Assembly (NCBI GenBank): GCA_050952645.1
Contig: JBMNLI010000014.1
Span: 10,300 to 74,299, forward strand
Direction: 5' to 3'
DNA length: 64,000 bases
Source of the DNA: Bdellovibrionota bacterium
Lineage (GTDB): Bacteria; Bdellovibrionota_C; UBA2361; CAKMMH01
The position numbers and the translations under genes are program-made. Shown here piece by piece: positions 8,881 through 61,895 of this stretch. Below the pieces are notes generated by a model, which was not told the origin of the DNA, did no database searches, and was given only the letters and a program-made list of their open reading frames with translations. How positions within the stretch are numbered: the stretch's first letter is position 1; every line of letters begins with the position of its first letter.

Positions 8881-8950
8881 TTCTTTTGGGCTTCGTGGGG
8901 CGAGTGATACTAATTTTAAGGTCTTTAACCCACTTAAAACGTGAAGAGCC
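8881..8950 (+). mobile_element. MITE family copy, right half
   Basis: TTTTGGGCTTCGTGGGGCGAGTGATACTAATTTTAAGGTC...CTTAAAACGTGAAGAGCC, closely matching 15517-15584. Confidence 0.85.
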
Positions 8951-11900
8951 TTTTAATTCCTGGTATAAAATTAGATAATGATAGTATAAAGACTACTAAA
9001 CTCCCAGGGAGTTTGTGGAGAAAGGAAAAATATGTAGATTTTGTTCCCGTTGATAAAGAAAGTGAGACGATAAAACTTAGGACAATGAAGGGAGGGAAGA
9101 TTTTTATTAAGTCTGGTATAATATTAGATATATTTAAGTTGTTAGATGATGAGCCTCTCATAGCAGATTCGTTTCATGTAGGTTTTTTTAGGACTGCGCA
9201 AATTTTCGATACATCTAGTTCACCTAAGGGGAGTTCGTCTAGTAGTAGTCCATCATCTAGCAGTTCATCGTCTAGTAGTAGCAGTAGTTTATCTAGTAGC
9301 AGTGCATCTATTAGTAGCAGCTCATCTCTAAGTTCTTCTAGCAGTAGCAGTTTAAGTAGTTCTAGCTCATCTTTAAGTTCTAGTTCTTCTTCTAGTAGTA
9401 AGAACAGTTCGTCTAGTTCATTAAGTAGTAGTAGTTTTAGTAGTTCTAGCTCATCTTTAAGTTCACCTTCAAGTTCATCATCTAGTAGCAAAAGCTCTAG
9501 CAAGAGTAGTTCGCCAAGTTCTTCTAGTTCTGTAAGTTCAAACTTATCGCCAAGTAGTAGCAGTTTGTCTAGTTCGTCTAGTAGTTCTAGTTCTTCATCT
9601 AGTAGTAGTTCTTCTAGTTTTCTAAGTTCAAGCTTATCGCCTAGTAGTAGTAGTTCATCAAGCTCTTCTAGTAAGAGTTCATCTTCAAACAAGAGTTCTT
9701 CACCAAGTAGTAGCTCATCAAGCTCTTCTAGTAAGAGTTCATCTTCAAGCAAGAGTTCTTCACCAAGTAGTAGCTCATCTAGCGAGAGTTCCTCGTCTAG
9801 TAGTAGCAGCAGTGCATCAACAAGTAGTTTTAGCAGTTCTTTAAGTTCAAGTTCATCACCAAGTATTAGCAGTTCGAGTTCAAGTAAAAGTAGCTTATCA
9901 CGTTCATCTAGTAAAAGCAGTTCTTCTAGTTTTTTAAGTTCTAGTTCTTCGCTAAGTAGCAGTTCGAGGAGTTCATTAAGTAGTAGTAGTTTTAGTAAGA
10001 GTTCTTTATCTAGCTTTTCTAGTTCTCTAAGTTCAAGCTTATCACCTAGTAGTAGTTCATCAAGTAAGAGTTCATCATCATTTAGCAAAAGCAGTTCGAG
10101 CAAGAGTAGTTCGCCAAGTAGCAGTTCTTCTAGTTCTTTAAGTAGTAAGAGTAGCTTGCCAAGTGCATCAAGTAAAAGCAGTTTGTCGCCTAGTAGTAGT
10201 TCTTCTTCTAGTAATTTAAGTAGCTTGCCACCAGAGCCTCCTATTACGTCGCCTAGCACTAGTTCTTATTCTAGTAGTTCGTCTAGTAGTAGTAAGAAGC
10301 CACCACTACCGCCAGTAAATCCATCTAGTAGTAGTTTTTCTAGTGAAAGTGAAGATTCCACTTCGAGCACGCCTCAAGAAGTTTGCCCTCCAAATACGGA
10401 AGTTTGTTTTGAGGGGTTATGTTGTCCGATAGGGACTTGTCGCTTTACCATTGTCAATGGTTCTGTTACTGCAAGGTGGTGTGATACTCAAAGTTCTTCA
10501 GCATCATCTTTACCGCCAGTAATTATAAGTGAAAGTTTTTCTTCTTTCTCGAGTGAAAGCTCATCAGAAAGTGAAAGCTCTTTTAGTTTTTCTTCAGCGT
10601 GTCCTCCTTGGAGGCAGTGTGATTATCTTTGTTGTGAAGAGGGGGAGGAGTGTAAAACGTATTTACAAGAAAATGCAGACGGTGAGATTATCCCGATTCC
10701 TAGTTGTGAGAAAGTGAGTAAAAGCTCGTCTAGTTTTTCTTCTGAGACGTTTAGCAGTGAAAGTTTATCTAGTTCTTCTTTAGCGTGTCCTTCTGATAGG
10801 CAGTGTGGGCATTTATGTTGCGAGGATAGCGAAACGTGTAGTATAGAAGTACAAGAAGAAGGCGAGGATATTTATATCGTATATAATTGTATAAAAGAGA
10901 GTGTAAGTTCTAGTGAGAGTTCTTTAGAAAGTGTAGCTTCGAGCGAAAGCTTAGAAAGTAGTAGTTTAAGCAATTCTTCTAGCTCTTTAAGTTCTAGTTC
11001 GAGTAAGAGTAGCTCACCTAGTTCATCTAGTTTAAGTAGCTCTTCTTCTAGTTCATCATCTCCAAGTAGTTCAAGCAGTTCTTCTAGCTCGTCATCTAGT
11101 TTTAGTAGTAGCAGTTCTTCTTCATGCAGTGAAGGTACAGAAATGTGTGGAGACGTTTGTTGCGACCCAAATAAATGTAATTCTGATACTTGCTGCCCTA
11201 ATGAAGATCCTGTGCCGTGTGGAGATAAACCGTGTTGTGATAATGGTAAATGCGCTAATCCTGATGAAAGTCTCTGTTGCCAAGATTGGCAAGTGCCTTT
11301 TAATGGGGGATGTGAAGAGCCGTGCAATGATTGTTGCGATTCAAGAGAGATATCTATTATTAGAAGAGATGCTTATGGAAATCAAATAACTCGTTGTTGT
11401 CCACAGGGTTCAACTTATACCAATGCTCAAGGTAATTTATGGTGTGATAACCCAGCTAAGTGTCAAAATAATGGAGAAACTATGAGACAAATAGGTTTTA
11501 TACAAGAAAGCCATTCTCCACATAAGGTTTATATGTGTTGTAAGGAAGATTTATGGTGGCAAGATCTTAGTTCGGGATATTGGGTATGTGGAGCTAGTAG
11601 TAGCAGTTCATCAAGCTCTTCTAGTAAGAGTTCATCTTCAAACAAGAGTTCTTCACCAAGTAGTAGCTCATCAAGCTCTTCTAGTAAGAGTTCATCTTCA
11701 AGCAAGAGTTCTTCACCAAGTAGTAGCTCATCTAGCGAGAGTTCCTCGTCTAGTAGTAGCAGCAGTGCATCAACAAGTAGTTTTAGCAGTTCTTTAAGTT
11801 CAAGTTCATCACCAAGTATTAGCAGTTCGAGTTCAAGTAAAAGTAGCACATCTAGTGGAAGTTATAATAGTTATGAAGCGGAATCTGTAAGTAGTGTATC

Positions 11901-12261
11901 TAGTAAAAGTTTAGAAAGCCAAGCGAGTTGCGAAAGTGGTTCTTATGCTTGTGGAACTAATTGCTGTTCTAGTGAGCAAGATTGTTATAATGATAGAAGT
12001 GAATGTTGCGATGGTAAGTTTGTAAATGGGACGTGTTGCCCAGCAGAGAGAGTTTACGATGGTTCTAAATGTTGTGATGAGGGTAAAGTTGCTTATACAT
12101 CATACTTAGGAAGTGGTTGCTGTAAAATAGATCATGTATATACGCATGATATTTATGAATATTGTTGTCGTGAACCGTTATGTGGTGGTGAATGTTGTGG
12201 CGAACTAAGAGAATGTAATAATGGCGAATGTGTAGACAAAGAAGGATACTCGGCTAGTTAA
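8941..12261 (+). CDS. Large poly-Ser / Cys-rich repeat protein (start uncertain)
   Basis: 1106 codons open; Ser tracts use mixed AGY/TCN codons; repeated C-P-x(3-5)-C-x(3-4)-CC modules. Confidence 0.8.
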   Translation: MKSLLIPGIKLDNDSIKTTKLPGSLWRKEKYVDFVPVDKESETIKLRTMKGGKIFIKSGIILDIFKLLDDEPLIADSFHVGFFRTAQIFDTSSSPKGSSSSSSPSSSSSSSSSSSSLSSSSASISSSSSLSSSSSSSLSSSSSSLSSSSSSSSKNSSSSSLSSSSFSSSSSSLSSPSSSSSSSKSSSKSSSPSSSSSVSSNLSPSSSSLSSSSSSSSSSSSSSSSSFLSSSLSPSSSSSSSSSSKSSSSNKSSSPSSSSSSSSSKSSSSSKSSSPSSSSSSESSSSSSSSSASTSSFSSSLSSSSSPSISSSSSSKSSLSRSSSKSSSSSFLSSSSSLSSSSRSSLSSSSFSKSSLSSFSSSLSSSLSPSSSSSSKSSSSFSKSSSSKSSSPSSSSSSSLSSKSSLPSASSKSSLSPSSSSSSSNLSSLPPEPPITSPSTSSYSSSSSSSSKKPPLPPVNPSSSSFSSESEDSTSSTPQEVCPPNTEVCFEGLCCPIGTCRFTIVNGSVTARWCDTQSSSASSLPPVIISESFSSFSSESSSESESSFSFSSACPPWRQCDYLCCEEGEECKTYLQENADGEIIPIPSCEKVSKSSSSFSSETFSSESLSSSSLACPSDRQCGHLCCEDSETCSIEVQEEGEDIYIVYNCIKESVSSSESSLESVASSESLESSSLSNSSSSLSSSSSKSSSPSSSSLSSSSSSSSSPSSSSSSSSSSSSFSSSSSSSCSEGTEMCGDVCCDPNKCNSDTCCPNEDPVPCGDKPCCDNGKCANPDESLCCQDWQVPFNGGCEEPCNDCCDSREISIIRRDAYGNQITRCCPQGSTYTNAQGNLWCDNPAKCQNNGETMRQIGFIQESHSPHKVYMCCKEDLWWQDLSSGYWVCGASSSSSSSSSSKSSSSNKSSSPSSSSSSSSSKSSSSSKSSSPSSSSSSESSSSSSSSSASTSSFSSSLSSSSSPSISSSSSSKSSTSSGSYNSYEAESVSSVSSKSLESQASCESGSYACGTNCCSSEQDCYNDRSECCDGKFVNGTCCPAERVYDGSKCCDEGKVAYTSYLGSGCCKIDHVYTHDIYEYCCREPLCGGECCGELRECNNGECVDKEGYSAS
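9641..9894 (+). repeat. About 254-bp intragenic direct repeat, copy 1 (contains a 60-bp tandem duplication)
   Basis: Near-identical to 11594-11847 (offset 1953, in frame; one mismatch seen). Confidence 0.9.
11594..11847 (+). repeat. About 254-bp intragenic direct repeat, copy 2
   Basis: Near-identical to 9641-9894. Confidence 0.9.
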
Positions 12262-12502
12262 GGCTCTCAAAATGTTTCGTTTTCGAGTGGCTTTTCAAAT
12301 TGAAGCTAAAATCTTTTAAAATCAAAAAAACGGCTTTATAATTATTTCTTGCTCAAGAAATATGATTATGTTAATTTATGAATGTTGGTTTTGTGTTTTT
12401 AAAAAGAACGCAAATTTTTTATAAAGAATTATAAAGGATAATTTTTCCTTTATATTCTTTATGGTTTTGATCTCTCCTAGAAAATAGGAGAAGGAGGTTG
12501 TA

Positions 12503-13353
12503 ATGAACTTTAAAACGCTTATGCCCACTATTGTTTTCTCGTTGGTGGGCGTTTTGTAGCTATTGTTTGCCTGTTATGCAGCAGAGTTGTGCAGGACAGG
12601 ATAAAGGTTCGACTAACAATCAGCAAATTATCCTTGCTGAAAAAGCACAATCTAAAGCTTTCCCATTAAATGGGACTGCGGAAGAGAAATTAGCGTATTT
12701 TGACGAACTCAATTTGGAGCTTTTTGAAAGTACACTTAGCACAAAAGTGGCAAAACGCTCCCTTGATGTGGACATGTCTTTGTCCAAAAAGCTTAAATGG
12801 CTTAAAAAATATACGACAAATTATAAAGCTAAAGTGGACGACATTCTACTTCTTGGTGGAAAGAGTGTCTACTTTAAGTGGTTGGGTGAAAATTTAAATT
12901 CGTACGACATTAAAAACTTAGAAGAGTCTATCGATGGGATGCAACTTAAGTTGTCTAAAGCAACTGAGGAAGAGTTTTTAATGGATCGTGAGAATTTAGC
13001 ACTTGTAGCTACTGCAAAGTTTGCTTGCATAAGTTCTTTGCAACGTTTTAAAGACATAAGAGAAAACAAAATCGTTACAAAAAGCGATGCTGTTTTAAAA
13101 GCAAATAACTGAAGCAGAGAGAGAAATTGATAAAATTTTAGCATGTTCTGAAAGTATTTGTCAGCAGGCGATTCATTATCAGAAGGATTTGCTGAAGATC
13201 GTAGAATCGGAATTGCAAAATTATGATATAGTTTTGAGCTTTGAGAGAAATAAATTCTATTTCGAATCAAGAAATGAAAGAGATAGAAAGTTAGCTGAAC
13301 TGCAAGTACAAGCTAAGGCTCAAGCCAAAACTGAAGCCAAGCAACAGCGTTAA
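12503..13353 (+). pseudogene. Exported hypothetical protein (about 282 aa) broken by two +1 homopolymer frameshifts
   Basis: AAGGAGGT RBS before ATG 12503; removing one T (12552-12555) and one A (13103-13105) gives MNFKTLMPTIVFSLVGVCSYC...AKTEAKQQR*, followed by a terminator. Confidence 0.7.
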
Positions 13354-13389
13354 CCGTAAACGAGTAACAAAATTAGTTGGTCAACATTT

Positions 13390-13422
13390 GAGCTCCTTGA
13401 TACGTTAAGGAGCTCTTTTTTT
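13390..13422 (+). terminator. Intrinsic terminator
   Basis: GAGCTCCTT-GATACGTT-AAGGAGCTC followed by T7; lies between convergent genes. Confidence 0.9.
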
Positions 13423-13446
13423 ATTTAATACTCTATATTATATTTA

Positions 13447-14629
13447 TTATATTATCGTAGGGACGGAATAGTCGATGCCATCTACGTCGAAGCCAAAAAG
13501 ATTTATAAAATCCTTTCTTACTCCCTCGATATCCGTTATTTCAGATATATTTTCCGATGTTATCTTATCCCAAGTAGCTGAAATCTTTTCTTGAATATCT
13601 TTGTTTAGCTCTAGATTGTCAACTCTTATTCGTCCCTCATCGTCTAGCTTGCAATCGCCTAAAATATCATTGTCGCTATAAAGGCGCACTATCTGCTCTA
13701 TACAGTCTTCATGCGTGCCTGCCTCTTTCATAAATCGATATAAAAGACTTAAATATAAAGGAACTACTGGGATAGCTGCTGATGCTTGCGTCACGAGTGC
13801 CTTATTTACTGAAATGTAAGATTTGCCTCCAATGTCTTTTATCAATTTATCGATATCTTTAACGGTATTAGTTAAATGCTCTTTAGCTTTTCCAATCGTG
13901 CCATCGTTGTAAATATCCCAAGTAAGTTTAGGCCCGATATAAGAGTAAGCAATGGTTCTAAAATTAGGAGCTAGCAGATCTTCTTTTTTTTAAAAACTCT
14001 ATCCACCTAAGCCAATCTTCTCCTCCCATAACTTTTATAGTTCCATTTATTTCATCTTGAGTAGCAGGCTCTAATGAGATTTCTTTTACCTCTCCTTCGT
14101 ATATATTAACAGTTTTTGAGTTAAATTGCTTGCCTATAGGTTTTAATGTAGATGCATAAGTCTTACCCGTAGTAGGGTCAGTTCTTCTAGGAGCAGCTAG
14201 GCTATAGAGTAAAAATTCTAGCTTCCCAAATTTTTTTCTTATCTCATCGATAATAATTTTTTTATTTTCATCTGAAAAAGCATCCATATTATGAAAGTTA
14301 TAATATACATCTTCATTTTTAAGGTTTTCCTTTAGCGCCTCTACCATATAATACCCTGCCGAAGCAGTCTTTTCTCCCGATGGTTCTTTTTCAAACCCAA
14401 CGCTTATCACATCAGCCTTTAGTCCAAAGCTTAGCACTATGCTAGATGAAATCCCATAGCCAGTTGAACCTCCAAGGACTAATGCATTTTTAAATTTATT
14501 TTTTGTAAAACTCTTCGATTTTACTAGGTTTATCTGATTCTCAATTATTTTTTTACATCCACCACTATGAGCCGTGGTGCATAAAAATCCCCTTATCTTA
14601 GGAACTATTATTCCAGTTTCTCGTTGCAT
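13447..14629 (-). CDS. fabV: Enoyl-ACP reductase FabV / trans-2-enoyl-CoA reductase (frameshift at T8 13984-13991)
   Basis: RGFLCTTAH, GGSTGYG, YSLAAPRR, TIKVMGGEDW; removing one base restores TIAYSYIGP and joins KALVTQASAAIP...HEDCIEQ. Confidence 0.92.
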
Positions 14630-14867
14630 TAAAAAAGCCTCCTAAAAACATTTATACCTTATGATTCATAATAATTTATACTTTAGTAAAACTTAAAACC
14701 AAAAAGGCACTTAAAAATATCTTTATATAATAAAATATTTTTATATAATATTATAAACATAAATAGAGTTCATTTGTAATTTTTAGTGTAGCAACACTTT
14801 ATGAGAAAGAACTAACTAAAAAAGAACTCACTCTTAATAACAAATAGGAAGTATTATAGTTTAAAGT

Positions 14868-15503
14868 ATGAATAAGCGAACTAGTAATATAATAACCATT
14901 CTAGAAAAAAAATATAAAAATTTAAAAAGTGCACTTATTTTTAGTAATCCTTACGAATGTTTGGTATCCGTGATGCTTTCGGCACAATGCACCGATAAAA
15001 AAGTAAATGAAGTGACGCCCGTTCTTTTTCAAAAATATAGATCGCCTAAAGAACTTTCAGAAGCCAAAATAAAGGATGTAGAGAAAATTATCAGGCAAGT
15101 TAATTATTACAAAACAAAGTCAAAGCATATAGTGGAAACTGCAAAAATTATAAGTAATAATTTTTCTAATAACATTCCTACTACTTTTGATGAGCTTATT
15201 TTACTTCCTGGAGTTGGGCAAAAAACTGCAAATGTGGTATTATCTGAACTTGGGCTTGAAGATACGTTTCCAGTAGATACGCACGTTTTTAGAGTTTCAC
15301 ATAGGCTTTCTTTAAGTAATGCAAAAAACGTAAGAGAAACTGAAGAGGATTTAAAAAAGATTATCCCTAAAGAGTATTGGAGAAAAGCTCATCATATGTT
15401 TATATGGCACGGAAGATTAGTTTGCAAGGCACAAAACCCTAAATGCAAAGAGTGCGAGTTAGCAAAGTTGTGTGATTTTTTCGGTTCTTCACGTTTTGGG
15501 TAG
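14868..15503 (+). CDS. nth: Endonuclease III
   Basis: LSAQCTD, LPGVGQKTANV (HhH), VDTHVFR, C-terminal Cx6Cx2Cx5C 4Fe-4S motif. Confidence 0.97.
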   Translation: MNKRTSNIITILEKKYKNLKSALIFSNPYECLVSVMLSAQCTDKKVNEVTPVLFQKYRSPKELSEAKIKDVEKIIRQVNYYKTKSKHIVETAKIISNNFSNNIPTTFDELILLPGVGQKTANVVLSELGLEDTFPVDTHVFRVSHRLSLSNAKNVRETEEDLKKIIPKEYWRKAHHMFIWHGRLVCKAQNPKCKECELAKLCDFFGSSRFG

Positions 15504-15584
15504 GTTAGAAAAATTGTTTTGGGTTCCGTGGGGTGAGTGATACTAATTTTAAGGTCTAAAACCTACCTTAAAACGTGAAGAGCC
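15483..15584 (+). mobile_element. 102-bp MITE with ISL3-like termini and 8-bp target-site duplication
   Basis: Inverted termini GGTTCTTCACGTTTT / AAAACGTGAAGAGCC; ATTTTTTC at both 15475-15482 and 15585-15592. Confidence 0.92.
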
Positions 15585-15668
15585 ATTTTTTCAAAGATAA
15601 AAAATTGGAAAACAAAGATAAACAAAACAAATAAAATAAACAAAATAAAAAAAATAAAAAGGATAAAA

Positions 15669-16658
15669 ATGAGTAATAATCTTGATAATTATAATAGTAT
15701 AAAGGAAACGGCAAATAATGTAGTGCAAAAAGAGATTGAGACGCTTGAAAGCATAAAAACCTCTATCGATGATAATTTTGTAGTAGCAGCAAAAATGATT
15801 CTAGAATTAAAAGAAGATGCAAAGGTAATAGTATCAGGCATGGGAAAAGCTGGCTTTATAGGAATGAAAATCTCTGCAACTTTTGCTAGCACTGGAGTGC
15901 CATCGTTTTTTCTTCATCCAGCAGAAGCAGTACACGGAGACTTAGGTAGATATAGAAAGAATGATATAGCGTTAATTTTATCTAACTCTGGTGAAACTCA
16001 AGAGGTTTTAAGGATTTTACCATCGTTAAAAATTATAGGTTGTCCCGTAATTTCTATTACGGGAAACGAGGCGTCTACTTTAGCAAAAAATAGCGATGTA
16101 GTGCTTTCTTTAAATAAAACTAAAGAGGCTTGCCCTTTAGGTTTAGCGCCGACTAGTTCAACGACTGCAATGCTAGTAATTGGCGATGCTTTAGCGATGG
16201 CAATCTTAAAAGAACGCAATTTTACGGCAGAACAATTTGCGTTTTATCACCCTGGGGGGGCGCTAGGTCGCTCGCTTATGAAAGTAGAGGAAATTATGAG
16301 AAAAGATGATCTGCTTTGTGTGGCAAATGAAAATATGACGGCAAAAGAGGTGATACAAAGCATGACTATCACTAAGGGACGCCCTGGGGCTGCAATTATA
16401 GTAAATGATGATGGGTTCCTAGTTGGAGTTTATACAGATGGAGACCTTAGACGAAATCTAAGTAAAGATTGTAGTTTTCTTGAAGAACCTATAAAAAATA
16501 TTATGGGTAAAAATCCTAAAACTATTTTAGGAGATAAGTTAATCGAGGAAGCTAGCCGAGTGTTAAGAGAGTTCGAGATAGATCAAATAATAGTAGTAAA
16601 TGAAGTAAATAAGCCTGTAGGTTTAGTAGATATACAAGATGTGTATAAGATATTTTAA
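15669..16658 (+). CDS. kdsD: Arabinose-5-phosphate isomerase (KpsF/GutQ family, SIS plus 2 CBS)
   Basis: SGMGKAG, LHPAEAVHGDLG, EACPLGLAPTSST, HPGGALG, TDGDLRR. Confidence 0.95.
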   Translation: MSNNLDNYNSIKETANNVVQKEIETLESIKTSIDDNFVVAAKMILELKEDAKVIVSGMGKAGFIGMKISATFASTGVPSFFLHPAEAVHGDLGRYRKNDIALILSNSGETQEVLRILPSLKIIGCPVISITGNEASTLAKNSDVVLSLNKTKEACPLGLAPTSSTTAMLVIGDALAMAILKERNFTAEQFAFYHPGGALGRSLMKVEEIMRKDDLLCVANENMTAKEVIQSMTITKGRPGAAIIVNDDGFLVGVYTDGDLRRNLSKDCSFLEEPIKNIMGKNPKTILGDKLIEEASRVLREFEIDQIIVVNEVNKPVGLVDIQDVYKIF

Positions 16659-16982
16659 TTTTTTGCCAAAGAATTTATAAAGCCTTATTATAAAGGTTAA
16701 AGGAGAAATTTTTTAGTTAAAAACTTTAGGTAAAAAATAAGATAAAAAAACTAAGGTAAAAATTAAGACAAAAACCAAGATAAAAAAACAAAGATAAAAA
16801 AACAAAGACAAAAATAAAAAATAAAAATAAAAGTCTAATAATATAAGCTACTAGAAAAATTCTTGTAAAAAGAAAAAACCATTTTAAAAATTTCTCATCA
16901 TATAAAATAGGTATTCACGTTTTAAAGTAAAAAATATCTATTTATCAAAGAAGAGTTATTAAAGAGTTATTAAAGAATTATT

Positions 16983-18551
16983 ATGGCATTAGAATTTAAT
17001 TTAGTACAAAAAATGAGTCAACAGCTTGCGATGACGCCGCAGCTTCAGCAAGCTATAAAGCTTTTACAGCTTAATAAGGCTGACTTAAAAGATCTTATAG
17101 AAAAGGAACTCCAAGAAAATCCAGTATTAGAAGATGCAAGAGAACTCGAGCAAAGAAATGAGCAAAGAAATAGTAAAAAAAATAAAGAAGACTTTGCAAA
17201 AGACGCAAAATTAAATTTTTCAGACGATAATTTAGATAATGGAGCAAGGAAACAGAAGAAATCGAATAATGAAAAAAGCGATTGGGAATTATACCAAGAG
17301 CGTTTTGGAGAGCTTCCAAGAACTAAGCGAAGATCTACTAGAGATTTTCAAAATATTCCATCTATAGAAAATACGATATCGCAAAAGCCATCTTTACATG
17401 AACATCTAATAGACCAGCTTCGTTTACTTTCCATATCTAAAAAAGAAGAAGAGCTTTGTTTAGAAATAATTTTAAACTTAGATAATAATGGATTTTTAAA
17501 TATTAGTTATGAAGAGTTAGGAGAGTTTTATAAGGCATCGCTAAGTGAAATAAACGTGGCAATAGATATATTAAAAGAGTTAGAGCCTTGTGGGGTAGGG
17601 GCTAGAAATGTAAAAGAATGTCTATGTTTCCAATTAGAAGCGATAGGCAAAAAGGACTCTTTAGAGATGAAGCTTATAAACGATCATTTAAATAGGCTTG
17701 CAATCAAGCAGTATGAGCAAATAGCCAAGATGGAAAATGTAGACTTAAAAAGTGTATACGTAGCACTTAAAAACATTAAGTCTTTAGAGCCTTATCCAGG
17801 GCGCTTATTTAGCGATGAGACTATAAATTATATAACGCCCGATATATATATTTTGAAAGATAAGGAAAGTGGTAAATGGAGAATAAGTTTTAATAATGAT
17901 GATATGCCAGAGCTAAGAGTTAATCCTGAGTATATAAGGCTAGCAAATAAGCAAAAAGAGTTAGAAAAAAAAGAGTTAGAAATGAGCAAAGGAGAAACCA
18001 AGGGAGAAAGCAAAGAAAATAAAGATAATGATTTAGATAATTCTTCAGATTATTTAACGGAAAAAATAAGAGCTGCATCTTGGTTTATAAAAAGCATAGA
18101 GCAAAGACAAAATACGATATACAAAGTTACTGAAAGTATAATAAAGTTTCAAGAAGATTTTCTTGAAAATGGCATAAGATATTTAAAGCCGATGGTATTA
18201 AAAGATGTAGCAAATGATATAGGCATGCATGAGTCGACCGTTAGCAGAGTAACGACTAACAAGTACGTGCATACGCCTCAAGGCATTTTTGAGTTAAAGT
18301 ATTTTTTTACTAGTGCTATCGGTTCTAGAAACAATCAAGACGTTTCATCGTCTTACATTAAAAAGCTTATCGAAGACCTTATAAATAAGGAAGATAAAAA
18401 TTCGCCTATAAGCGACCAATATATTACATTAGAACTTGCCAAAAAGAATATCGATATAGCAAGAAGAACCGTTGCAAAGTATAGAGAGGGGCTAGGCATT
18501 CTTCCATCATCGAAAAGAAAAAGACAAAATTTAGAAGAAAGATTTTGCTAA
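16983..18551 (+). CDS. rpoN: RNA polymerase sigma-54 factor
   Basis: MTPQLQQAIKLLQL, HESTVSRVT, RpoN box ARRTVAKYRE. Confidence 0.98.
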   Translation: MALEFNLVQKMSQQLAMTPQLQQAIKLLQLNKADLKDLIEKELQENPVLEDARELEQRNEQRNSKKNKEDFAKDAKLNFSDDNLDNGARKQKKSNNEKSDWELYQERFGELPRTKRRSTRDFQNIPSIENTISQKPSLHEHLIDQLRLLSISKKEEELCLEIILNLDNNGFLNISYEELGEFYKASLSEINVAIDILKELEPCGVGARNVKECLCFQLEAIGKKDSLEMKLINDHLNRLAIKQYEQIAKMENVDLKSVYVALKNIKSLEPYPGRLFSDETINYITPDIYILKDKESGKWRISFNNDDMPELRVNPEYIRLANKQKELEKKELEMSKGETKGESKENKDNDLDNSSDYLTEKIRAASWFIKSIEQRQNTIYKVTESIIKFQEDFLENGIRYLKPMVLKDVANDIGMHESTVSRVTTNKYVHTPQGIFELKYFFTSAIGSRNNQDVSSSYIKKLIEDLINKEDKNSPISDQYITLELAKKNIDIARRTVAKYREGLGILPSSKRKRQNLEERFC

Positions 18552-18561
18552 GAACGTTTTG

Positions 18562-19260
18562 TTAAAAAGATAAATCGATATTATCATAAATAGCATTACT
18601 TTTCTTATAGAGAGTAGCCCATTCACGGTCTCCATAACTAAAATGCCACCATTCACCATTGAAAGGGGCGAACTCTTGCTCGTGCATAAGTTTTCTTAAC
18701 ATTATTCTATTTTTAAATTGTTGTTTTGATATGTGAGTAGAAGCAGTGGCAAGTTTTTCTTCCTGAGAAAAATCTCCTATTTCCATTCCCATATCGAGAG
18801 GGAGCTCGTTTATTTCAATACTTAAGTCGACAGCACCACCAGTTGTGTGTCCTGCGACCTCTGGCATTGCAATCTTTATATGTGCTTTTTCTATGGCGTC
18901 GTTATGAGCAATATTAGGGTATTTTTTACAAATATCTTCTAGTGTAATTTTAAAATTTTCCCTTTGTATTTTTAAAGGTCTATAACAATTAAATATAACT
19001 AATTTTGCATCACTATTTATAGTTTTTAATTCGTTTGCAATATTTTTAATTTTCTTTGCAATACTTTCTCTTGCATAGAAAAAAATATTATTCTCATTAT
19101 GGTTTGAGATATTTTTAAGATAGCAAGGAGTTCTGAAAATGACCTTATCTCCTATAACATCTGGTAAGTATAGCATTTCTTCGTTGTTATCTATAACTTG
19201 CATTTCTAATAACTCCGACACTTTGCTAATTTTATTAAAGTCCCAAAATAAATCGTTCAT
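18562..19260 (-). CDS. VanX/DdpX-like D-Ala-D-Ala dipeptidase (M15 Zn peptidase)
   Basis: YRP, HTTGGAVD and EWWHFSYGD motifs; no signal peptide. Confidence 0.88.
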   Translation of the reverse strand: MNDLFWDFNKISKVSELLEMQVIDNNEEMLYLPDVIGDKVIFRTPCYLKNISNHNENNIFFYARESIAKKIKNIANELKTINSDAKLVIFNCYRPLKIQRENFKITLEDICKKYPNIAHNDAIEKAHIKIAMPEVAGHTTGGAVDLSIEINELPLDMGMEIGDFSQEEKLATASTHISKQQFKNRIMLRKLMHEQEFAPFNGEWWHFSYGDREWATLYKKSNAIYDNIDLSF

Positions 19261-19277
19261 ATTATTTTAATTTTTAT

Positions 19278-19388
19278 CATTCTTCACGTTTAAAGGTGGT
19301 TTTAAATTTTCCAAAAAAATTAGTACCACCCCTTCCCCGAGCTCAAAAGAAAAACTATTTTCCTAACCCACTTAAAATGTGAAGAACC
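19278..19388 (-). mobile_element. 111-bp MITE copy (reverse orientation) with 8-bp target-site duplication
   Basis: (CA)TTCTTCACGTTT...AAAATGTGAAGAACC; ATTTTTAT at both 19270-19277 and 19389-19396; internal GTGGTACTAATTTT on the minus strand. Confidence 0.9.
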
Positions 19389-19392
19389 ATTT

Positions 19393-20283
19393 TTATTTAA
19401 GTTTTTGAATTATAGAATCATCAATGTAAAGCTCACCTTTGGCAATAATATCTACAATACCTCCGATAGAGATATTTGTAATTTTGCCGTTATTGATCTT
19501 TGTTTTAACTAAAATCTGTTTATTACTAGGTTGGCGCACTAAGATAGCTAGTCCTTTTTTATCTTTTAAGGTTTTAGCTATCCCAATTGCCGCAGTCCCC
19601 GAACCACAAGCCGTTTCATAGAAAACGCTATCAGTATTTTTAACCCAAACGATAGGAAAGATTTTTATCTCTTCTACGGCTTGTTTATACCAAATCGTAC
19701 CAACGGCTTCAAGGTCTTCTAAGTTTAAATTAGTTCTAATTTGTTTAGAAATTTCAATGTAATTTTTTTCATCAAAATTTAAAACATCCGTATCAATCAA
19801 AACGTGCGTAATACCTTTCATTTCAATGATATCAAGTAAAGTATCGTTATATTTTTTAGTAATATATTTAATATCATTGTCTAATTCTACTAGTGCATCA
19901 ATCCCTTTCTCAGTTTTAAAGCACGTTTCATGAAGCTTTTTGTTGACTCCTGATACTGAAAACTCACAAGTCCAACTTTCGTCAGTTTCATGCTTTAAGG
20001 CAGGGGAACCTTTATCAAGTAGGTAGGCTAAAAAAGCCCTACTTGCGTTTCCGCAAAATTCACCTTCCATCATATCTAATCTTGGAGTTCCATCGGCACA
20101 ATAGCTTACAAAACCAACCTGCTCTCCTCCTAAATGTAAGTTGTGCATAATCTTATTTGAAATAAGCGCCCTATCTTTAGGACTATCAACATGGGGTGAG
20201 TCTATTAGTATGGTAGTATTACCACTAGGACTCATTTTATAAAAATTAAAAGCAATTTTCACAACATTCTCCAATTTGAACAT
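19393..20283 (-). CDS. PLP-independent amino-acid racemase, DapF-fold, CntK/histidine-racemase-like
   Basis: SPSGNTTILI, EQVGF, GEFCGNA and ETACGSG (two catalytic Cys); lacks the canonical DapF KMHGxGNDF start. Confidence 0.82.
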   Translation of the reverse strand: MFKLENVVKIAFNFYKMSPSGNTTILIDSPHVDSPKDRALISNKIMHNLHLGGEQVGFVSYCADGTPRLDMMEGEFCGNASRAFLAYLLDKGSPALKHETDESWTCEFSVSGVNKKLHETCFKTEKGIDALVELDNDIKYITKKYNDTLLDIIEMKGITHVLIDTDVLNFDEKNYIEISKQIRTNLNLEDLEAVGTIWYKQAVEEIKIFPIVWVKNTDSVFYETACGSGTAAIGIAKTLKDKKGLAILVRQPSNKQILVKTKINNGKITNISIGGIVDIIAKGELYIDDSIIQKLK

Positions 20284-20393
20284 ACCATATTTATCACCAA
20301 ATTTATCATCTAAACCTAAAGAAAGCTATTGCAAAAAATAGAGCAATTGGTACACTTTCTGTGTGTAGTTATTTTTTTTATACGAGGTGTTAA

Positions 20394-20708
20394 ATGCAAG
20401 AAGAATCAGGAAGAGTAATAACGACTAATATTTCTTTTAGAAATACGGAAGCTACTGAAGCATTAAAACAATATGCTTCAGAAAAAATAACAAACGTCTT
20501 AAGAAAGTTTGTGCGCCAAGATACTGATGTTTCAATAGTGCTTAGCGTTGAAAAAACTAGACATATAGCCGAGGTAAGCTTTAGAGCAGATGGCGCTGAT
20601 TTTAATGCAAAGCAAGAAAGCACCGATCTTTATGCTTCAATAGATGGTTTAGTAGATAATATCACTTCCCAATTAAGAAGACATAAAGAAAAAATTCAAA
20701 AAAGATAA
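20394..20708 (+). CDS. hpf: Ribosome hibernation promoting factor (short HPF/RaiA)
   Basis: ISFRNTEATEALKQY, DLYASID...QLRRHKEK. Confidence 0.93.
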   Translation: MQEESGRVITTNISFRNTEATEALKQYASEKITNVLRKFVRQDTDVSIVLSVEKTRHIAEVSFRADGADFNAKQESTDLYASIDGLVDNITSQLRRHKEKIQKR

Positions 20709-20715
20709 AATTTAA

Positions 20716-20980
20716 AGCTTTCGCACGTTTTTTTAAATTACTCTCTTTTAAACGTTCTACCTTTAGCTTCCATAAATATGCTAGTTAGGAAAAGATATCG
20801 TTAAATAAGATAGATAAATATTATATCAAAAAATATTATAGTAAGATACCAACGAGAGATATTATAAAGAAATATAAAAGAGAGATAATCGTGTGAAAAC
20901 GTGTGAAAACATGTGAAAACATTGTATAAAACAGCATTGTATAAAATAACAAAGGCCACACAAAAAACGTGCAAGAAAGT
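20716..20980. mobile_element. Degenerate longer element with MITE-like inverted termini
   Basis: CTTTCGCACGTTTTTTT at left, AAAAAACGTGCAAGAAAG at right; internal CGTGTGAAAA 10-mer repeats. Confidence 0.5.
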
Positions 20981-21410
20981 TTGAAATTTAGATAAAAATT
21001 TTATTTAACTTAAGGTTTTTTATATAGGTTTTATGGAATTTCAAAGCATTATTATAGCTTTTTGTAGGTATTTTTAATTTTTAGTGTTTTATTTAATGCA
21101 TTTATTTAATGCTTTATTATTTAATGTAAATATATTTTTTTCTTACCATTTTTTGTTTATTTTTTTACTTATTTTTTATCTATTTTCTAGTTAATTTTCT
21201 TTAAATCCCTATTTAATCTTTCTTTTAGCGACTTTTTAGCGAAAATAGATCAAAAAAACACTGATAAAATAAAAAAATAAACAACTATTCGCAAAAAAGA
21301 TCATCTTAAAATTTAGGTAACGCTATTTTTTTAAAAATAGGGGATATTCTAGTTTTTTGTTTTTTATAAGAAACTATAAAAAATACGTAATTATTTAAGG
21401 GCATAAACTC

Positions 21411-22295: not shown

Positions 22296-22303
22296 GAAAC
22301 TTT

Positions 22304-25078: not shown

Positions 25079-25230
25079 ATTTAACATTTAAATTTAAAGG
25101 GTTTTTTTATGTTTTAAGTGAGTTGTAAAAAGTTGTGTAAATAAGTTTATAAAATAAGTTTATAAAAAAAGTTTATAAAAAAAGTGTGATTATAAAAGGA
25201 ATTATAAAGTTATAAAAGGAATTATAAAGA

Positions 25231-31917: not shown

Positions 31918-33030
31918 ATGCAAAAAAATATCTTAGAAAAATTTAATCAATTTAATTTTAATGAATTCTTACAAAATTTATTGTCTTATATCGATAGTAG
32001 TGAAAATCAAATCGATATAGCGTGTATATTTTTAATTATTTTTGCTTTTATATTTATATTAAAAAGAAAACCAGATAAGCAAATAGAGCACGCAAGCGGC
32101 AAGAAAGAGGCTGAAGATAGAAAGGCCATTGTTTATGATAAGCTTAGTAAGAGTAGGGTAAGCTTGCTTACTAAGATAAATAATATTTTTTCTTCGCATT
32201 CAGAGAAGAAAGAGATATTAGAAGATTTAGAGGAGCTTCTTATCTTATCAGATGTAGGAGCTAAGGTATCGGCGCTACTTTGTAAAGAATTAAGTGAAGA
32301 ATTTAAGACCATAAATAGTGAGAGCAAAGAAGAAATATTACTTTCTCTTAAAAGTAAAATAGAGAATATTTTAGGCGAAGATAAGGAAATAGAGTTAGTA
32401 GAGGGTGAGACTAAAATTATAATGGTAGTAGGAGTTAATGGGGTTGGAAAGACGACGACTATTGCTAAGCTTGCAGATAAATGGATAAAGCAAGGAAAAA
32501 AAGTTTTATTAGTAGCGGGGGATACTTTTAGGGCGGCTGCAACTGAGCAGCTTGTTTTTTGGGGTGAAAAAGTAGGAGCAGAGGTTGTAAAGGGAAAAGA
32601 GAACGATAAGCCATCGACCGTAGTTTTCGATGCGATGAAAAGGCTTAAATCCGAAGCATTTGATGTGGTGATTGTAGATACTGCTGGAAGGCTTCACAAC
32701 AAAGCTAATTTAATGCAAGAACTTTCTGGTATTCAAAATGCGATAAAGAAAAATATAGAAAAGGGCGTAGATGAGGTGCTCTTAGTGGTAGATGGAACTA
32801 GTGGACAAAATGCCCTTTCTCAGGCTAAGGAGTTTAATAATGTAGTAGGACTTACTGGAATTATAATAACTAAACTTGACGGAACGCCTAAGGGAGGAAT
32901 TTTAATAGCGATTAAAAAGGCTTTAAATATACCTATATATTTTATAGGTATAGGAGAAAAGCAAGAGGACTTAGTAAGGTTTAATGCTAAAGAGTTTGCT
33001 AGTGCGCTACTAGAAAATAAAGAGTCTTAA
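31918..33030 (+). CDS. ftsY: SRP receptor FtsY
   Basis: GVNGVGKTTT, DTFRAAA, DTAGR, TKLDG; follows smc. Confidence 0.97.
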   Translation: MQKNILEKFNQFNFNEFLQNLLSYIDSSENQIDIACIFLIIFAFIFILKRKPDKQIEHASGKKEAEDRKAIVYDKLSKSRVSLLTKINNIFSSHSEKKEILEDLEELLILSDVGAKVSALLCKELSEEFKTINSESKEEILLSLKSKIENILGEDKEIELVEGETKIIMVVGVNGVGKTTTIAKLADKWIKQGKKVLLVAGDTFRAAATEQLVFWGEKVGAEVVKGKENDKPSTVVFDAMKRLKSEAFDVVIVDTAGRLHNKANLMQELSGIQNAIKKNIEKGVDEVLLVVDGTSGQNALSQAKEFNNVVGLTGIIITKLDGTPKGGILIAIKKALNIPIYFIGIGEKQEDLVRFNAKEFASALLENKES

Positions 33031-33037
33031 TAAAATT

Positions 33038-33098
33038 GTTCTTTATGCTTTTTGGGCTTTGCAGTAGTTGGGTGATGCTAATTTTTAAGATCTTAAAC
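33038..33098 (+). mobile_element. Degenerate MITE remnant
   Basis: GTTCTTTATG...TTTTGGGCTT...GTGATGCTAATTTTTAAGATCTTAAAC shares the family core. Confidence 0.6.
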
Positions 33099-40852: not shown

Positions 40853-40967
40853 GGTTCTTTACGTTTTAGGCTTCGTTAGATTCATCTTCGTTGGATTAAG
40901 CTTCGTTAGATGATGTGTGGCACTAATTTTTTAGAATTTTAAAACCACCTTAAAACGTTAAAGAACT
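40853..40967 (+). mobile_element. MITE copy, diverged
   Basis: GGTTCTTTACGTTTT...GTGGCACTAATTTT...CACCTTAAAACGTTAAAGAACT; flanks AAAAAAGA / AAAAAATT (6/8 match). Confidence 0.82.
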
Positions 40968-45342: not shown

Positions 45343-45393
45343 AGACTTTTTTATATTGTGATTTATAACTTTTTGTCCAGCGGATTGTCAACT

Positions 45394-45465
45394 TTCTTTT
45401 AGGCTCTGTGTGTGAAGAGATACTAATTTTTGAGGATTAAAAACCATTTTAAAGCGTGAAGAACT
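45394..45465 (+). mobile_element. MITE copy, right half
   Basis: TTTTAGGCTCTGTG...GAGATACTAATTTT...TTAAAGCGTGAAGAACT. Confidence 0.75.
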
Positions 45466-47456: not shown

Positions 47457-47601
47457 AGTTCTTACACGTTTTAAGCGAATTAGAAAAATTGTTTTAGGTT
47501 AGCTTAAAAGAAACGAATGAAACTAGTGGAAATTTTCTTTAGGCTAGTGTGGTAAGTGGTGCTAAATTTATGAGCTTAAATATTTTTAAATGTGCAAGAC
47601 T
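47457..47601 (+). mobile_element. MITE copy, diverged and longer
   Basis: AGTTCTTACACGTTTTAAG..TTAGAAAAATTGTTTT...GTGGTGCTAAATTT...AAATGTGCAAGACT. Confidence 0.75.
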
Positions 47602-55851: not shown

Positions 55852-57774
55852 TTGGCGATTAAAATAAGGACAGACATATTTGCAATGAATGCAATTAGAG
55901 GCTTATCTAAAAGCTCAAAAGAGCTTTCAGATATCTACTCTAAGTTATCATCTGGAATCAGAATAAATAAAGCCTCCGATGATGCTGCGGGGCTTGCTAT
56001 CGCTTCTTCATTAAATACCGATTGCAGAGTTTTTAATCAGGGACTTAAAAACGTAAATGATGGTATCTCCTTTATACAAATAGCTAGTAATGCTATCTCT
56101 TCACTAAAAGACATCACTATAAGACGCCAAGAACTCGCCGAGCAATCTGCTAATGGTGTTTATTCAGATAAACAAAGAGAAAGTTTAAATGAAGAGTTTA
56201 TAGCATTAGCTAACGAATACCAAAGGATTATAGCTACTACCGAATTTAATGGCTTAAATTTATTAAATGGTAGTATGGAAAAATTATCATTGCAATTAGG
56301 ATATTCCGAGCTAGATTTAGATTTTGGTAAAACGCTAAAAGAACTAAAGACGCTAGGCGTTTACAAAGTGGGCTATTCGGCAGAAAGGTCTTTTACACAA
56401 ACCGTTGCATCTACTAACGGCGGATTTTCGTCAGATATTGCACTCGGTGATGTTAATGGCGATGGCTTTTTAGATATGATAGTTTCAGATTATGGAACTA
56501 AGGAACAGTGTACTAATGGTGGGTATTCTAATACGGTTTCAGTATCTATAGGAAAGGGCGACGGAACTTTTGAAGATGCAGTTTTTTATAGCTTAGGAGT
56601 AGAAAGCAGACCGCACAATGTTTCTTTAGCAGATATAAATAGCGATGGGCATTTAGATATTTTATCAGATATCGCACAAGGCGACGTAGTATACCTTATG
56701 ACTAATAATGGAGATGGCACATTTAATACTAGCGAGACTTTCGACCCAGAGCTAATAGTGTTAAACTCGGTAGCTTCAGGTGATATAAATGGTGATGGCA
56801 ATGTGGATATTATAACTGCAGGAAGAGGCGCATCTGGAAATGGAGTTTTCGTAAATTTAGGTGATGGTGCTGGAAATTTTAGCGCCGCGACGACTGGGCA
56901 AAGCACGCCATCTAGCGTATTTAATTTAAGAGTTGCAGATATAAATGGCGATGGAAATGATGATGTAGTATCTGCAAATAAGGCAAACAATAGCTTTTCA
57001 GTTTTTACATCGAATGGAACGGGGCTAGAGGCTGGAGATGTGTATAATGTCGGAGCTACAGTTTACGATGTGGCAGTAGGCGATTTAGATGGAGATGGAA
57101 AAAGTGATATAGCGGTAGCATCTGGTAATGGCTTACATATTTATAAGCAAAATGAAGATGGAACTTTTTCAAATGTTAAAACTTTTAATGAAGGCTCGAG
57201 AGTTACGGCAGTAGAGATAGACGATATAGATAATGATGGAAGCTTAGATGTCGTGTCTGCACAAAGTTTAGATAATACGGTTACGCTATTTATAAATGAG
57301 GGCGACCTAAAATTTAAAAAACAGACGGCGTATGCAGGAAGCGGAGCTTCTGCAATGGCAGTAGGTGATATAAATAATGATGATGCGTTAGATGTTGCAA
57401 CGGCAAACTCTAGGGCAGCAACGGCAGAGGCGTTGACCGCAGGCGAGGTTCATATGGACATTTTAACTCAGCGCAATGCGCTAAACTCTCTAGATGAGTT
57501 AAAAACGATATTAGAAAAACTATCGAGCTTCCAAGGACAGTTAGGGGCTGTTCAATCGAGATTAGAAACTGCATCTAATGTTATGCAAATATCGAAAGAA
57601 AATAGTAGCGCCGCTGCATCGATTATTTCAGATGTAGATGTTGCAGATGCTAGCTCAAGAATGGTAAGACAAAATATACTTCAAGAGGTTTCTGCATCGA
57701 TCATATCTCATGCGAATTTACAATCAAATATCGCTTTGCAGTTGCTAGATTTTTCTAATGAAACAAAAAAATGA
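55852..57774 (+). CDS. Flagellin with seven FG-GAP/VCBS repeats in the variable region
   Basis: N-terminal KLSSGIRINKASDDAAGLAI...TEFNG; C-terminal LGAVQSRLE...ISDVDVA...ANLQSNIALQLL; seven DxxxDG/D loops between; TTG start. Confidence 0.93.
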   Translation: MAIKIRTDIFAMNAIRGLSKSSKELSDIYSKLSSGIRINKASDDAAGLAIASSLNTDCRVFNQGLKNVNDGISFIQIASNAISSLKDITIRRQELAEQSANGVYSDKQRESLNEEFIALANEYQRIIATTEFNGLNLLNGSMEKLSLQLGYSELDLDFGKTLKELKTLGVYKVGYSAERSFTQTVASTNGGFSSDIALGDVNGDGFLDMIVSDYGTKEQCTNGGYSNTVSVSIGKGDGTFEDAVFYSLGVESRPHNVSLADINSDGHLDILSDIAQGDVVYLMTNNGDGTFNTSETFDPELIVLNSVASGDINGDGNVDIITAGRGASGNGVFVNLGDGAGNFSAATTGQSTPSSVFNLRVADINGDGNDDVVSANKANNSFSVFTSNGTGLEAGDVYNVGATVYDVAVGDLDGDGKSDIAVASGNGLHIYKQNEDGTFSNVKTFNEGSRVTAVEIDDIDNDGSLDVVSAQSLDNTVTLFINEGDLKFKKQTAYAGSGASAMAVGDINNDDALDVATANSRAATAEALTAGEVHMDILTQRNALNSLDELKTILEKLSSFQGQLGAVQSRLETASNVMQISKENSSAAASIISDVDVADASSRMVRQNILQEVSASIISHANLQSNIALQLLDFSNETKK

Positions 57775-61417: not shown

Positions 61418-61477
61418 CTATCTTAATAGCTAAAATATAAAGAATTATATAAAGGTATATATATTTAGGAGTAAAAA

Positions 61478-61861
61478 ATGACGAAGCAGTATAGAATTAA
61501 AGTGTATGGGAAGAGAGGGTGTGATAAGTGTGGTGTTTTAAAGTCTAGACTAGCAAAGCTTTTAGAAAATGAGAAATGGCAAGACTTTGAAATGATAGAC
61601 TATGATATTTTAACTGAAGATGGCTTAGTAGCGTTCGTAAAAGAGGAAGTGTTAAATCCTCAAAGAATTCCTTGTTTTTTAGTTCAAAAGAAAAATGAAA
61701 AAGGCGATTACATAAATATGATAAACCCTGCTTGGAAAAATAATAAGTCTGAAGCTTTCGAGCCTTTTAAATTTTTAGGAATGGAAACGGATTATTCTCC
61801 AAAGGGAAATGGCGTAATAATTCCAAAACAAATAGATGCTATTTTAGCGCAAGCAAGATAG
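61478..61861 (+). CDS. Thioredoxin/glutaredoxin-like (NrdH-like) protein
   Basis: IKVYGKRGCDKC CxxC after a beta strand; RIP cis-Pro motif; between nrdD and nrdG. Confidence 0.8.
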   Translation: MTKQYRIKVYGKRGCDKCGVLKSRLAKLLENEKWQDFEMIDYDILTEDGLVAFVKEEVLNPQRIPCFLVQKKNEKGDYINMINPAWKNNKSEAFEPFKFLGMETDYSPKGNGVIIPKQIDAILAQAR

Positions 61862-61870
61862 TATGTTTTT

Positions 61871-61895
61871 TTTAAGATCTCAAAATTAGCATCAC
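61871..61895 (-). mobile_element. MITE core remnant
   Basis: Reverse complement GTGATGCTAATTTTGAGATCTTAAA, nearly identical to 33072-33097. Confidence 0.5.

What the first reader, a model, noticed from the sequence alone, without database searches (positions are those of the whole stretch)
8881..61895. Unannotated MITE family with ISL3-like ends and 8-bp target-site duplications
A ~100-145 bp element with termini GG(T/C)TCTTCACGTTTT...AAAACGTGAAGA(A/G)CC and a conserved inner GTG(A/G)(T/C)(A/G)CTAATTTT core recurs at 8881, 15483, 19278, 33038, 40853, 45394, 47457 and 61871, and possibly 20716 and 51358. Two copies have perfect 8-bp duplications (ATTTTTTC; ATTTTTAT). GG-starting ends and 8-bp AT-rich duplications are known ISL3 traits. 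No transposase is in the window, so it would be mobilised in trans. About 8-10 copies in 64 kb of varied age suggests a large genomic family. Many sit at gene 3' ends, where the long terminal stem could affect mRNA.
Basis: partly seen in the sequence, partly recalled or inferred. Interest (0 to 1): 0.7.

Follow-up and report, generated by a model that had tools for sequence, protein, structure and literature searches.

The report
ISL3-derived miniature transposons hosting an intron
The repeat is a real family of about 166 short, non-coding transposon copies that share their ends and 8-bp target duplications with a now-frameshifted ISL3 insertion sequence in the same genome, which likely once moved them, and 9 of the 10 copies of a class IIC self-splicing intron sit at the internal palindrome of this family; both phenomena are of known kinds.

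Summary
Confirmed, and fairly ordinary. Seven of the ten coordinates are family members; 61871 is borderline, and 20716 and 51358 are unsupported. The family has about 166 loci (1.3% of the genome; 0 hits in shuffled DNA). Perfect 8-bp duplications flank 16 of 90 paired elements against 0.5 expected. An ISL3 element on contig C10 (1,860 bp) has the same terminal repeats and an 8-bp duplication, but its transposase is frameshifted near codon 28. Five paralogous loci carry the empty site. Copies lie close to gene 3′ ends, but the arms show no covariation. Long subtypes carry an internal palindrome, and 9 of 10 near-identical copies of a class IIC group II intron sit at its arm ends. An ISL3-linked MITE is published for Microcystis, and IIC insertion after inverted repeats is published. 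The scan noted this family and the intron nesting before, on another piece of this genome, and similar nestings in other genomes. Added here: the parent IS, the census, empty alleles and all ten intron sites.

The parts
15483..15584 (+). Full short-form (subtype A) MITE, 102 bp, with terminal inverted repeats of about 24 bp
   Evidence: E 1.6e-25
15475..15482 (+). Left copy of the 8-bp target duplication ATTTTTTC
15585..15592 (+). Right copy of the 8-bp target duplication
14868..15503 (+). Endonuclease III (nth) gene; its last 6 codons and stop codon come from the MITE's left end
19278..19388 (-). Full subtype A MITE, 111 bp, with perfect ATTTTTAT duplications at 19270-19277 and 19389-19396, between convergent genes; the stop codon of ORF 19393-20283 lies in the duplication
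8780..8950 (+). 5'-truncated long-form (subtype B) MITE: most of the internal palindrome, an unoccupied intron target at its right arm, the core and the right terminal repeat
   Evidence: E 1e-51
40853..40966 (+). Decayed full copy with both ends and no perfect duplication
45378..45465 (+). Right-half fragment
47457..47600 (+). Decayed subtype C copy (short internal palindrome), right end degenerate
   Evidence: E 3.5e-13
33027..33098 (+). Decayed internal fragment
   Evidence: E 8.7e-5
61871..61897 (-). Possible core-only remnant; not significant
   Evidence: E 0.23

Best explanation
This is a family of non-coding miniature transposons (MITEs) that share terminal repeats and 8-bp target duplications with an ISL3 insertion sequence in the same genome, whose transposase likely moved them in trans, and whose internal palindrome now likely serves as the main hairpin target of a class IIC group II intron. 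Shown: the shared ends, the duplications, the empty alleles, four size subtypes, the frameshift in the one full-length IS copy, and the positions of the ten intron copies. Inferred: the transposase bound the roughly 24-bp ends and inserted the element into A/T tracts, duplicating 8 bp. Insertions near gene 3' ends and between convergent genes were tolerated, while those near promoters were purged. The short form arose from the long form by deletion between short internal direct repeats, or the reverse. The family is now mostly immobile in this strain. Later, the intron RNP recognised the single-stranded palindrome as a stem followed by RRGC|T (paired by a predicted EBS1 loop, GCUU) and retrohomed independently into existing copies, at either arm.
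For: IS C10:339480-341339: its left end is GGTTCTTCACGTTTTAGGTGGGTT, which differs by at most one base from the printed family consensus; its right end matches too; it is flanked by a perfect AAAAATTT duplication; it is ISL3 by PF01610 and NF033550. Duplication length is specific: perfect 8-mers in 16 of 90 against null mean 0.5 (max 4), while 6-, 7-, 9- and 10-mers do not exceed the null maximum. Allowing a one-base slip at the ends gives 30 of 90 against 1.8. The duplications are 95% A/T. Five loci 93-98% identical across the junction lack the element and hold one copy of the 8-mer. Subtype D carries 219 bp of the IS right end (E 4e-73). Intron: 10 copies with 0-2 substitutions each, while their MITE hosts are mostly 85-96% alike; insertion sites read GGGC|T five times, AAGC|T three times, AGGC|T once and TAGC|A once; 9 of 10 lie inside family loci; the RT's best PDB matches are 7UIM (362 bits) and GsI-IIC RT (337), against LtrA (165).
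Against: No transposition was observed. The only full-length transposase in this 94%-complete assembly is frameshifted, so the enzyme that made these insertions is not on hand as an intact gene. Subtypes A-C share only about 25-45 terminal bases with the IS, so descent from this exact IS is not shown for them. 60 of 90 paired elements lack a perfect duplication even with slip, and 104 of 284 end matches are unpaired. The five empty paralogs document one ancestral insertion, not several. The intron's preference is not robust: under the strictest hairpin definition the palindrome arms are 65% of candidate sites, and 9 of 10 is not significant (Fisher P 0.16). EBS1 is predicted from one local fold only. 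Two of ten intron copies lie on the C-rich strand.
Confidence: 0.88

Rival explanations
1. The element has been domesticated as an RNA structure (terminator or mRNA-stabilising stem) at gene 3' ends and is kept by selection for that role.
For: Strong stem (-41 kcal/mol, z -6.9). 3'-end bias with P 3e-12; 36 convergent contexts against about 24 expected and 18 divergent against 29-36 expected.
Against: Left and right arms match their own partner no better than a shuffled partner (17.58 against 17.60 of 24, P 0.62), and the same holds for the inner palindrome (P 0.28). No Rfam match. No terminator-like site was called at either copy in 14800-20400. Copies are decaying, and the element was not found in 40 relatives, including the same genus. 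Purifying selection against promoter hits also explains the bias.
Confidence: 0.12
2. The internal palindrome is an independent mobile repeat (REP-like or a second MITE) that inserted into the short ISL3 MITE; the intron targets that repeat rather than the ISL3 MITE.
For: The module has its own inverted arms and two lengths (about 53 and 115 bp); 8 of 58 complete modules lie more than 200 bp from a terminal repeat, and some form tandem arrays.
Against: 0 of 58 modules are flanked by a direct repeat of 2, 3, 4, 5, 6 or 8 bases; 50 of 58 lie within 200 bp of an ISL3-type end, and most of the rest keep MITE-internal flanking sequence.
Confidence: 0.15
3. The element is mobilised by a different resident transposase, such as the recently expanded IS1634.
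For: IS1634 has 9 copies at 99.8-100% identity, so it is the recently active transposase found here, whereas the ISL3 gene is broken.
Against: The IS1634 ends are unrelated, and the one copy inspected has a 5-bp duplication. The MITE ends match ISL3.
Confidence: 0.02

Closest known systems
187-nt ISL3-linked MITE of Microcystis aeruginosa PCC 7806 (PMC11448079; passages read)
   Same: Imperfect terminal repeats beginning GGCTCTTC that match resident ISL3 elements; 8-nt direct repeats; stem-loop fold; trans mobilisation inferred from shared ends.
   Different: Different host and internal sequence; four subtypes here; the parent transposase here is frameshifted; the passages read mention no intron in the Microcystis MITE.
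ISL3 family insertion sequences (PF01610, NF033550)
   Same: The C10 element encodes an ISL3 transposase; relatives at about 45-55% identity in Clostridia, Spirochaetales and others; 7 of 23 inspected relatives have ends beginning GG(T/C)TC, and 2 of those have perfect 8-bp duplications.
   Different: The MITE encodes nothing. The IS is 1,860 bp against about 1,400-1,490 bp for those relatives, with a longer non-coding right end.
Class C / IIC group II introns (B.h.I1, GsI-IIC, the intron of PMC10190682)
   Same: CGC triad in domain V, RT plus maturase without endonuclease, 4-nt IBS1 plus IBS3 after a stem, and insertion after 'terminator motifs or other inverted repeats' (PMC1702495, passages).
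   Different: 9 of 10 sites are in one transposon family rather than in terminators; in the long subtype the two arms of the stem are separated by about 80 nt; both arms are used, so the intron occurs in both orientations.
IIC-attC introns (PMC7923331, passages)
   Same: A class C intron repeatedly using the hairpin of another mobile repeat, with the insertion point at the base of the folded structure.
   Different: The target is a MITE palindrome, not an attC site; IBS1/IBS3 is RRGC|T rather than TTGT|T; no lineage-wide specialisation is shown here.

Membership tests
MITE (non-autonomous IS derivative) | Short, non-coding, multi-copy | tested here: met
   About 70-280 bp; 166 loci, 0 hits in shuffled genome
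MITE (non-autonomous IS derivative) | Terminal inverted repeats | tested here: met
   About 24-bp imperfect repeats; 282 profile sites against 1 in shuffled DNA
MITE (non-autonomous IS derivative) | Target-site duplication of fixed length | tested here: met
   8 bp: 16 of 90 against null 0.5; other lengths not above the null maximum
MITE (non-autonomous IS derivative) | Empty (pre-insertion) sites | tested here: met
   Five paralogous loci within the genome, for one insertion event; orthologous nth region without the element in G001 and G002, at about 70-75% DNA identity
MITE (non-autonomous IS derivative) | Mobilisation in trans by the partner transposase | not testable with these tools
   Inferred from shared ends
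ISL3 partner | ISL3 transposase with ends matching the MITE | tested here: met
   C10:339480-341339
ISL3 partner | Intact transposase reading frame | tested here: not met
   Frameshift near codon 28; a truncated sibling copy on C17 reads in frame there; a contig of run X1, possibly the source sample, agrees with the assembly across the site
ISL3 partner | Ends starting GG(C/T)TCT and 8-bp duplications | tested here: met
   same traits reported in PMC11448079; the AT-rich target preference of ISL3 in general is recalled
Class IIC group II intron (passenger) | Group II ribozyme with GUGYG...AY boundaries | tested here: met
   RF02001 and RF00029 above gathering score; boundaries
Class IIC group II intron (passenger) | CGC triad in domain V | tested here: met
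   Read from the 3' fold; criterion from PMC1702495
Class IIC group II intron (passenger) | Class C RT without endonuclease domain | tested here: met
   RVT_1 plus GIIM only; best PDB matches 7UIM and GsI-IIC RT, far above LtrA; that 7UIM is a IIC maturase is recalled; no tree was built
Class IIC group II intron (passenger) | Stem-loop upstream of a 3-4 nt IBS1, with IBS3 | tested here: met
   All 10 pre-insertion sites fold into a stem reaching the junction; IBS1 RRGC in 9 of 10
Class IIC group II intron (passenger) | Absence of EBS2 | not tested
   No full domain I model was built
Class IIC group II intron (passenger) | Insertion into the lagging-strand template | tested here: inconclusive
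   8 of 10 on the G-rich strand; one-sided binomial P about 0.055 by my arithmetic
Structured RNA / terminator family | Covariation supporting the stem; Rfam match | tested here: not met

The most novel reading that the evidence does not exclude
The intron is a MITE specialist, a counterpart of IIC-attC introns. Its EBS1 matches a target that the palindrome presents on both strands, so every long-form MITE copy is a two-sided landing pad usable on whichever strand is exposed at the replication fork, and a stem whose arms are about 80 nt apart suffices. Because the terminal repeats stay intact, the 2.1-kb MITE-plus-intron unit could be carried between genomes by an ISL3 transposase.
Probability: 0.15. 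Interest if true: 0.55.

Novelty: new member of a known kind. Interest (0 to 1): 0.3.

Why it matters
As a MITE it is one more ISL3-linked family, useful for annotating this genome: it makes up 1.3% of the DNA, rewrites at least one protein C-terminus (nth) and interrupts members of a Ser-rich gene family. The more useful point is the clean natural series: a broken parent IS, older MITE copies, a recent intron spread into them, and a recent IS1634 spread into the intron. The 9 occupied and 131 empty palindrome arms give ready substrates to test whether a class IIC intron accepts a long-loop stem and whether fork direction decides which arm is hit.

Tried and rejected
(1) I first took the 2.1-kb end-to-end units for the autonomous IS; they are MITE plus intron. 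An 1,806-bp pairing on C8 was a false pair around an unrelated gene. (2) Strain polymorphism: contigs of four runs laid on window 12400-21400 showed no joint skipping the 15483 or 19278 copy, and contigs of X1 and X4 span the 19278 copy with the element present. Four runs laid on the IS region showed no joint skipping the IS. Depth was low and contigs drop rare variants, so this does not show fixation. No RNA holder was listed. (3) The element was not found in 40 related genomes or in the plasmid collection. ISL3 was not found in G001, G002, G003 or G006; one weak match in G004. The intron RT matched 3 of 40 relatives, at 35-45% identity. (4) An exact-pattern scan of metagenomes for the palindrome-intron junction gave 3 hits, all chance matches with no intron or MITE. 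(5) None of 80 related ISL3 loci had both ends at 17 or more of 24 matches to ours. The short upstream frame of the transposase gave no significant match to relatives, so the frameshift reading rests on spacing and on the sibling fragment. (6) A possible empty site of the IS on C15 has only about 12 bp of left-side homology and is not counted. (7) Covariation tests were negative; these were simple own-partner against shuffled-partner counts, not R-scape. (9) PMC1871835 and PMC98933 are not held. ISfinder was not available.
Full report
Observation. The window is C14:10300-74299 of a 1.95-Mb, 31% G+C assembly in 17 contigs, 94% complete. The copies at 15483-15584 and 19278-19388 are as described, each with a perfect 8-bp duplication. 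I built four subtype profiles from copies on other contigs (21, 21, 6 and 9 sequences) and scored the window. Seven of the ten named positions are members. 61871 is a core-only match at E 0.23, and 20716 and 51358 gave nothing at E<=5. The copy named at 8881 is the inside of a 5'-truncated long form at 8780-8950. No Rfam family matches the window.

Census. The profiles give 188, 212, 202 and 26 genome hits and 0 in a block-shuffled genome; merged, they make 166 loci, 25.8 kb, 1.3% of the assembly. A 24-base end profile finds 282 sites against 1 in shuffled DNA, plus 2 gapped sites; 180 of the 284 pair into 90 elements. These 90 include the IS itself, 7 intron-carrying copies and a few false long pairs; none were dropped. 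Perfect 8-base duplications flank 16 of 90 (null mean 0.5, maximum 4 in 1,000 permutations), and other lengths do not exceed their null maxima. With a one-base slip allowed the count is 30 of 90 against 1.8, and the duplicated bases are 95% A/T. Subtypes: A, about 102 bp; B, about 222 bp, with an internal palindrome of about 115 bp; C, about 155-160 bp, with a palindrome of about 53 bp; D, about 270 bp, whose right 219 bp match the IS right end. Median pairwise identity within subtypes is 79-90% and no pair is identical, which points to an older spread. Poly-T length changes inflate this divergence.

Partner IS. One ISL3 transposase was found in the genome (NF033550 above cut-off), inside a 1,860-bp element at C10:339480-341339 with the family's ends and a perfect AAAAATTT duplication. 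Its gene is split. An ATG frame ends after 32 codons, and the 423-codon frame with the zinc-finger-like cysteines and the DDE domain opens in another frame. In relatives the start lies about 45 residues before the first CxxC (read), which fits only across the shift. A truncated sibling copy at C17:340016 reads in frame at that point. A contig of run X1 matches the assembly across the site without gaps; X1 may be the source sample. I infer a real loss-of-function frameshift, though recoding or a shortened enzyme is not excluded. Of 23 related ISL3 loci inspected, 7 have ends beginning GG(T/C)TC and 2 of these have perfect 8-bp duplications.

Empty sites. I removed each of the 90 elements and one duplication in silico and searched the genome. 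The insertions at C6:23218 and C12:89290 have five empty paralogs, 93-98% identical over 140 bases and holding the 8-mer once. The other junction-spanning hits were tandem copies of the element itself or weak matches. The filled copies share flanks, so this documents one insertion that was later duplicated; the window's 8780-8950 copy has the same right flank. In G001 and G002 the nth gene is followed directly by the next gene with no element. In the window the element supplies nth's last six codons and stop, and removing it restores a lysine-rich tail like that of G001. Public contigs showed no strain lacking the two full window copies or the IS, at low depth.

Gene context. With crude ORF calls (1,384 genes of at least 120 aa), 162 of 166 loci could be placed: 108 tandem, 36 convergent (about 24 expected) and 18 divergent (29-36 expected). 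Distances of 30 bp or less: 73 of 180 to 3' ends against 11 of 144 to 5' ends (Fisher P 3e-12). The bias is real. The element folds strongly as RNA, as any element with terminal inverted repeats must. The arms do not covary, nor do the palindrome arms, and no terminator was called at the two copies scanned. Sequence-level conservation of transposase-binding ends, plus removal of promoter-proximal insertions, is the simpler reading; this step is inference.

The intron. The 2.1-kb forms carry a 1,894-bp group II intron with a 433-aa RT-maturase and no endonuclease domain. The RT is closest to 7UIM and GsI-IIC RT, and domain V has the CGC triad. There are 10 copies, with 0-2 substitutions and 0-5 indel bases each; one is interrupted by IS1634. 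Nine lie in family loci, exactly at an arm end of the palindrome: six at the right arm, three at the left arm in the opposite orientation. The tenth follows a unique hairpin 98 bp from a family locus. A hairpin loop near intron position 302 offers GCUU, which can pair with all nine RRGC sites using G-U pairs (predicted). Host MITEs differ by about 4-15% while the introns are nearly identical, and the C6 host has an intron-free twin on C12, so the intron entered existing copies independently; nothing shows the composite moving as a unit. Whether this is preference or supply is open. Palindrome arms are 9%, 43%, 38% or 65% of empty hairpin-plus-IBS sites under four definitions, giving Fisher P from 1e-8 to 0.16; the two short-loop definitions cannot count the long module and overstate the effect. 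Occupancy is 9 of 140 arms. A junction between the intron and the left arm also appears in run X5.

Comparison with print. An ISL3-linked 187-nt MITE with GGCTCTTC ends and 8-nt repeats is described in Microcystis (PMC11448079, passages). IIC introns insert after terminators or other inverted repeats (PMC1702495, passages; PMC4424553, passages; PMC8919778, passages; PMC3522654, passages) and at attC hairpins (PMC7923331, passages). The stem, spacer, IBS1 and IBS3 geometry is solved (PMC10190682, passages). A MITE review has no occurrence of 'intron' or 'ISL3' (PMC10969869, term search). Thiomargarita has a MITE inside a group I intron, the reverse nesting (PMC4853749, passages). PMC2828477 (passages) and PMC12584367 (abstract) did not bear on the point. 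In eight searches (listings only, apart from the papers named) I saw no paper describing a IIC intron concentrated in a MITE family. The library lacks most subscription papers, including the primary papers on IIC targeting, so this is weak evidence of absence. No supplements were read.

Earlier notes of the scan. After my own analysis I found that this family and the intron nesting were noted on another piece of the same genome (e1-737245, e1-737246; four insertion sites there), and that IIC introns in MITE hairpins were noted in several other genomes. These are unchecked AI notes. The label 'uncultured Bdellovibrionota' comes from them and I did not test it. One note led me to open the Microcystis paper, which was already in my listing, and PMC1702495.

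Verdict. It is a new member of a known kind, with a tidy but expected secondary use as an intron target. Interest 0.3.

Noticed in passing
G000:C10:341121-341339 and subtype D loci (e.g. C12:9344-9618, C17:210605-210879): The IS right end and subtype D carry an inverted pair of 9-mers resembling DnaA boxes (name recalled). 10 of the genome's 25 exact TTATCCACA matches lie in these 3.4 kb. The copies share descent, so this is one event; a replication link to transposition is untested.
   Followed up: partly
G000:C14:8403-10260 (just left of the window) and 8 other loci: IS1634-family element, 1,858 bp, 9 copies at 99.8-100% identity; one sits inside an intron copy (C10:108923-110780) with a 5-bp duplication.
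   Followed up: partly
window 8941-12261: 1,106-aa serine-rich ORF with no Pfam match, a member of a multi-copy family with a conserved 5' segment. Its GTG start lies inside the MITE's right terminal repeat, in frame with the rest of the interrupted gene. A 259-bp internal duplication is at 9641/11594.
   Followed up: partly
window 8586-8656: 71 bp identical to the right flank of the subtype D copy at C7:126422-126690, just upstream of the truncated copy; suggests a local rearrangement between repeats.
   Followed up: no
G000:C10:108291-108585, C17:71283-71743, C9:42962-43575, C12:187287-187768: Tandem arrays of whole MITEs or of their internal segments; one intron copy sits in such an array.
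   Followed up: partly
window 19393-20283 (-): ORF resembling histidine racemase CntK / diaminopimelate epimerase, below curated cut-offs; its stop codon lies in the MITE's target duplication.
   Followed up: no
window 21411-28143: Type II secretion gene cluster (T2SSC, secretin, T2SSE, T2SSF), with a T2SSG gene at 7975-8382.
   Followed up: no
window 40665-40766: Tandem 14-16-bp repeat just upstream of the 40853 copy.
   Followed up: no
window 56449-57405 and 63154-63962: Coding repeats with periods of about 150 bp in two ORFs (families D20 and D17); they look like beta-propeller repeat proteins (impression, not tested).
   Followed up: no
window 25101-25124: A lone left-end-like match (score 23) between the secretin and T2SSE genes, not extended by any subtype profile.
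   Followed up: partly
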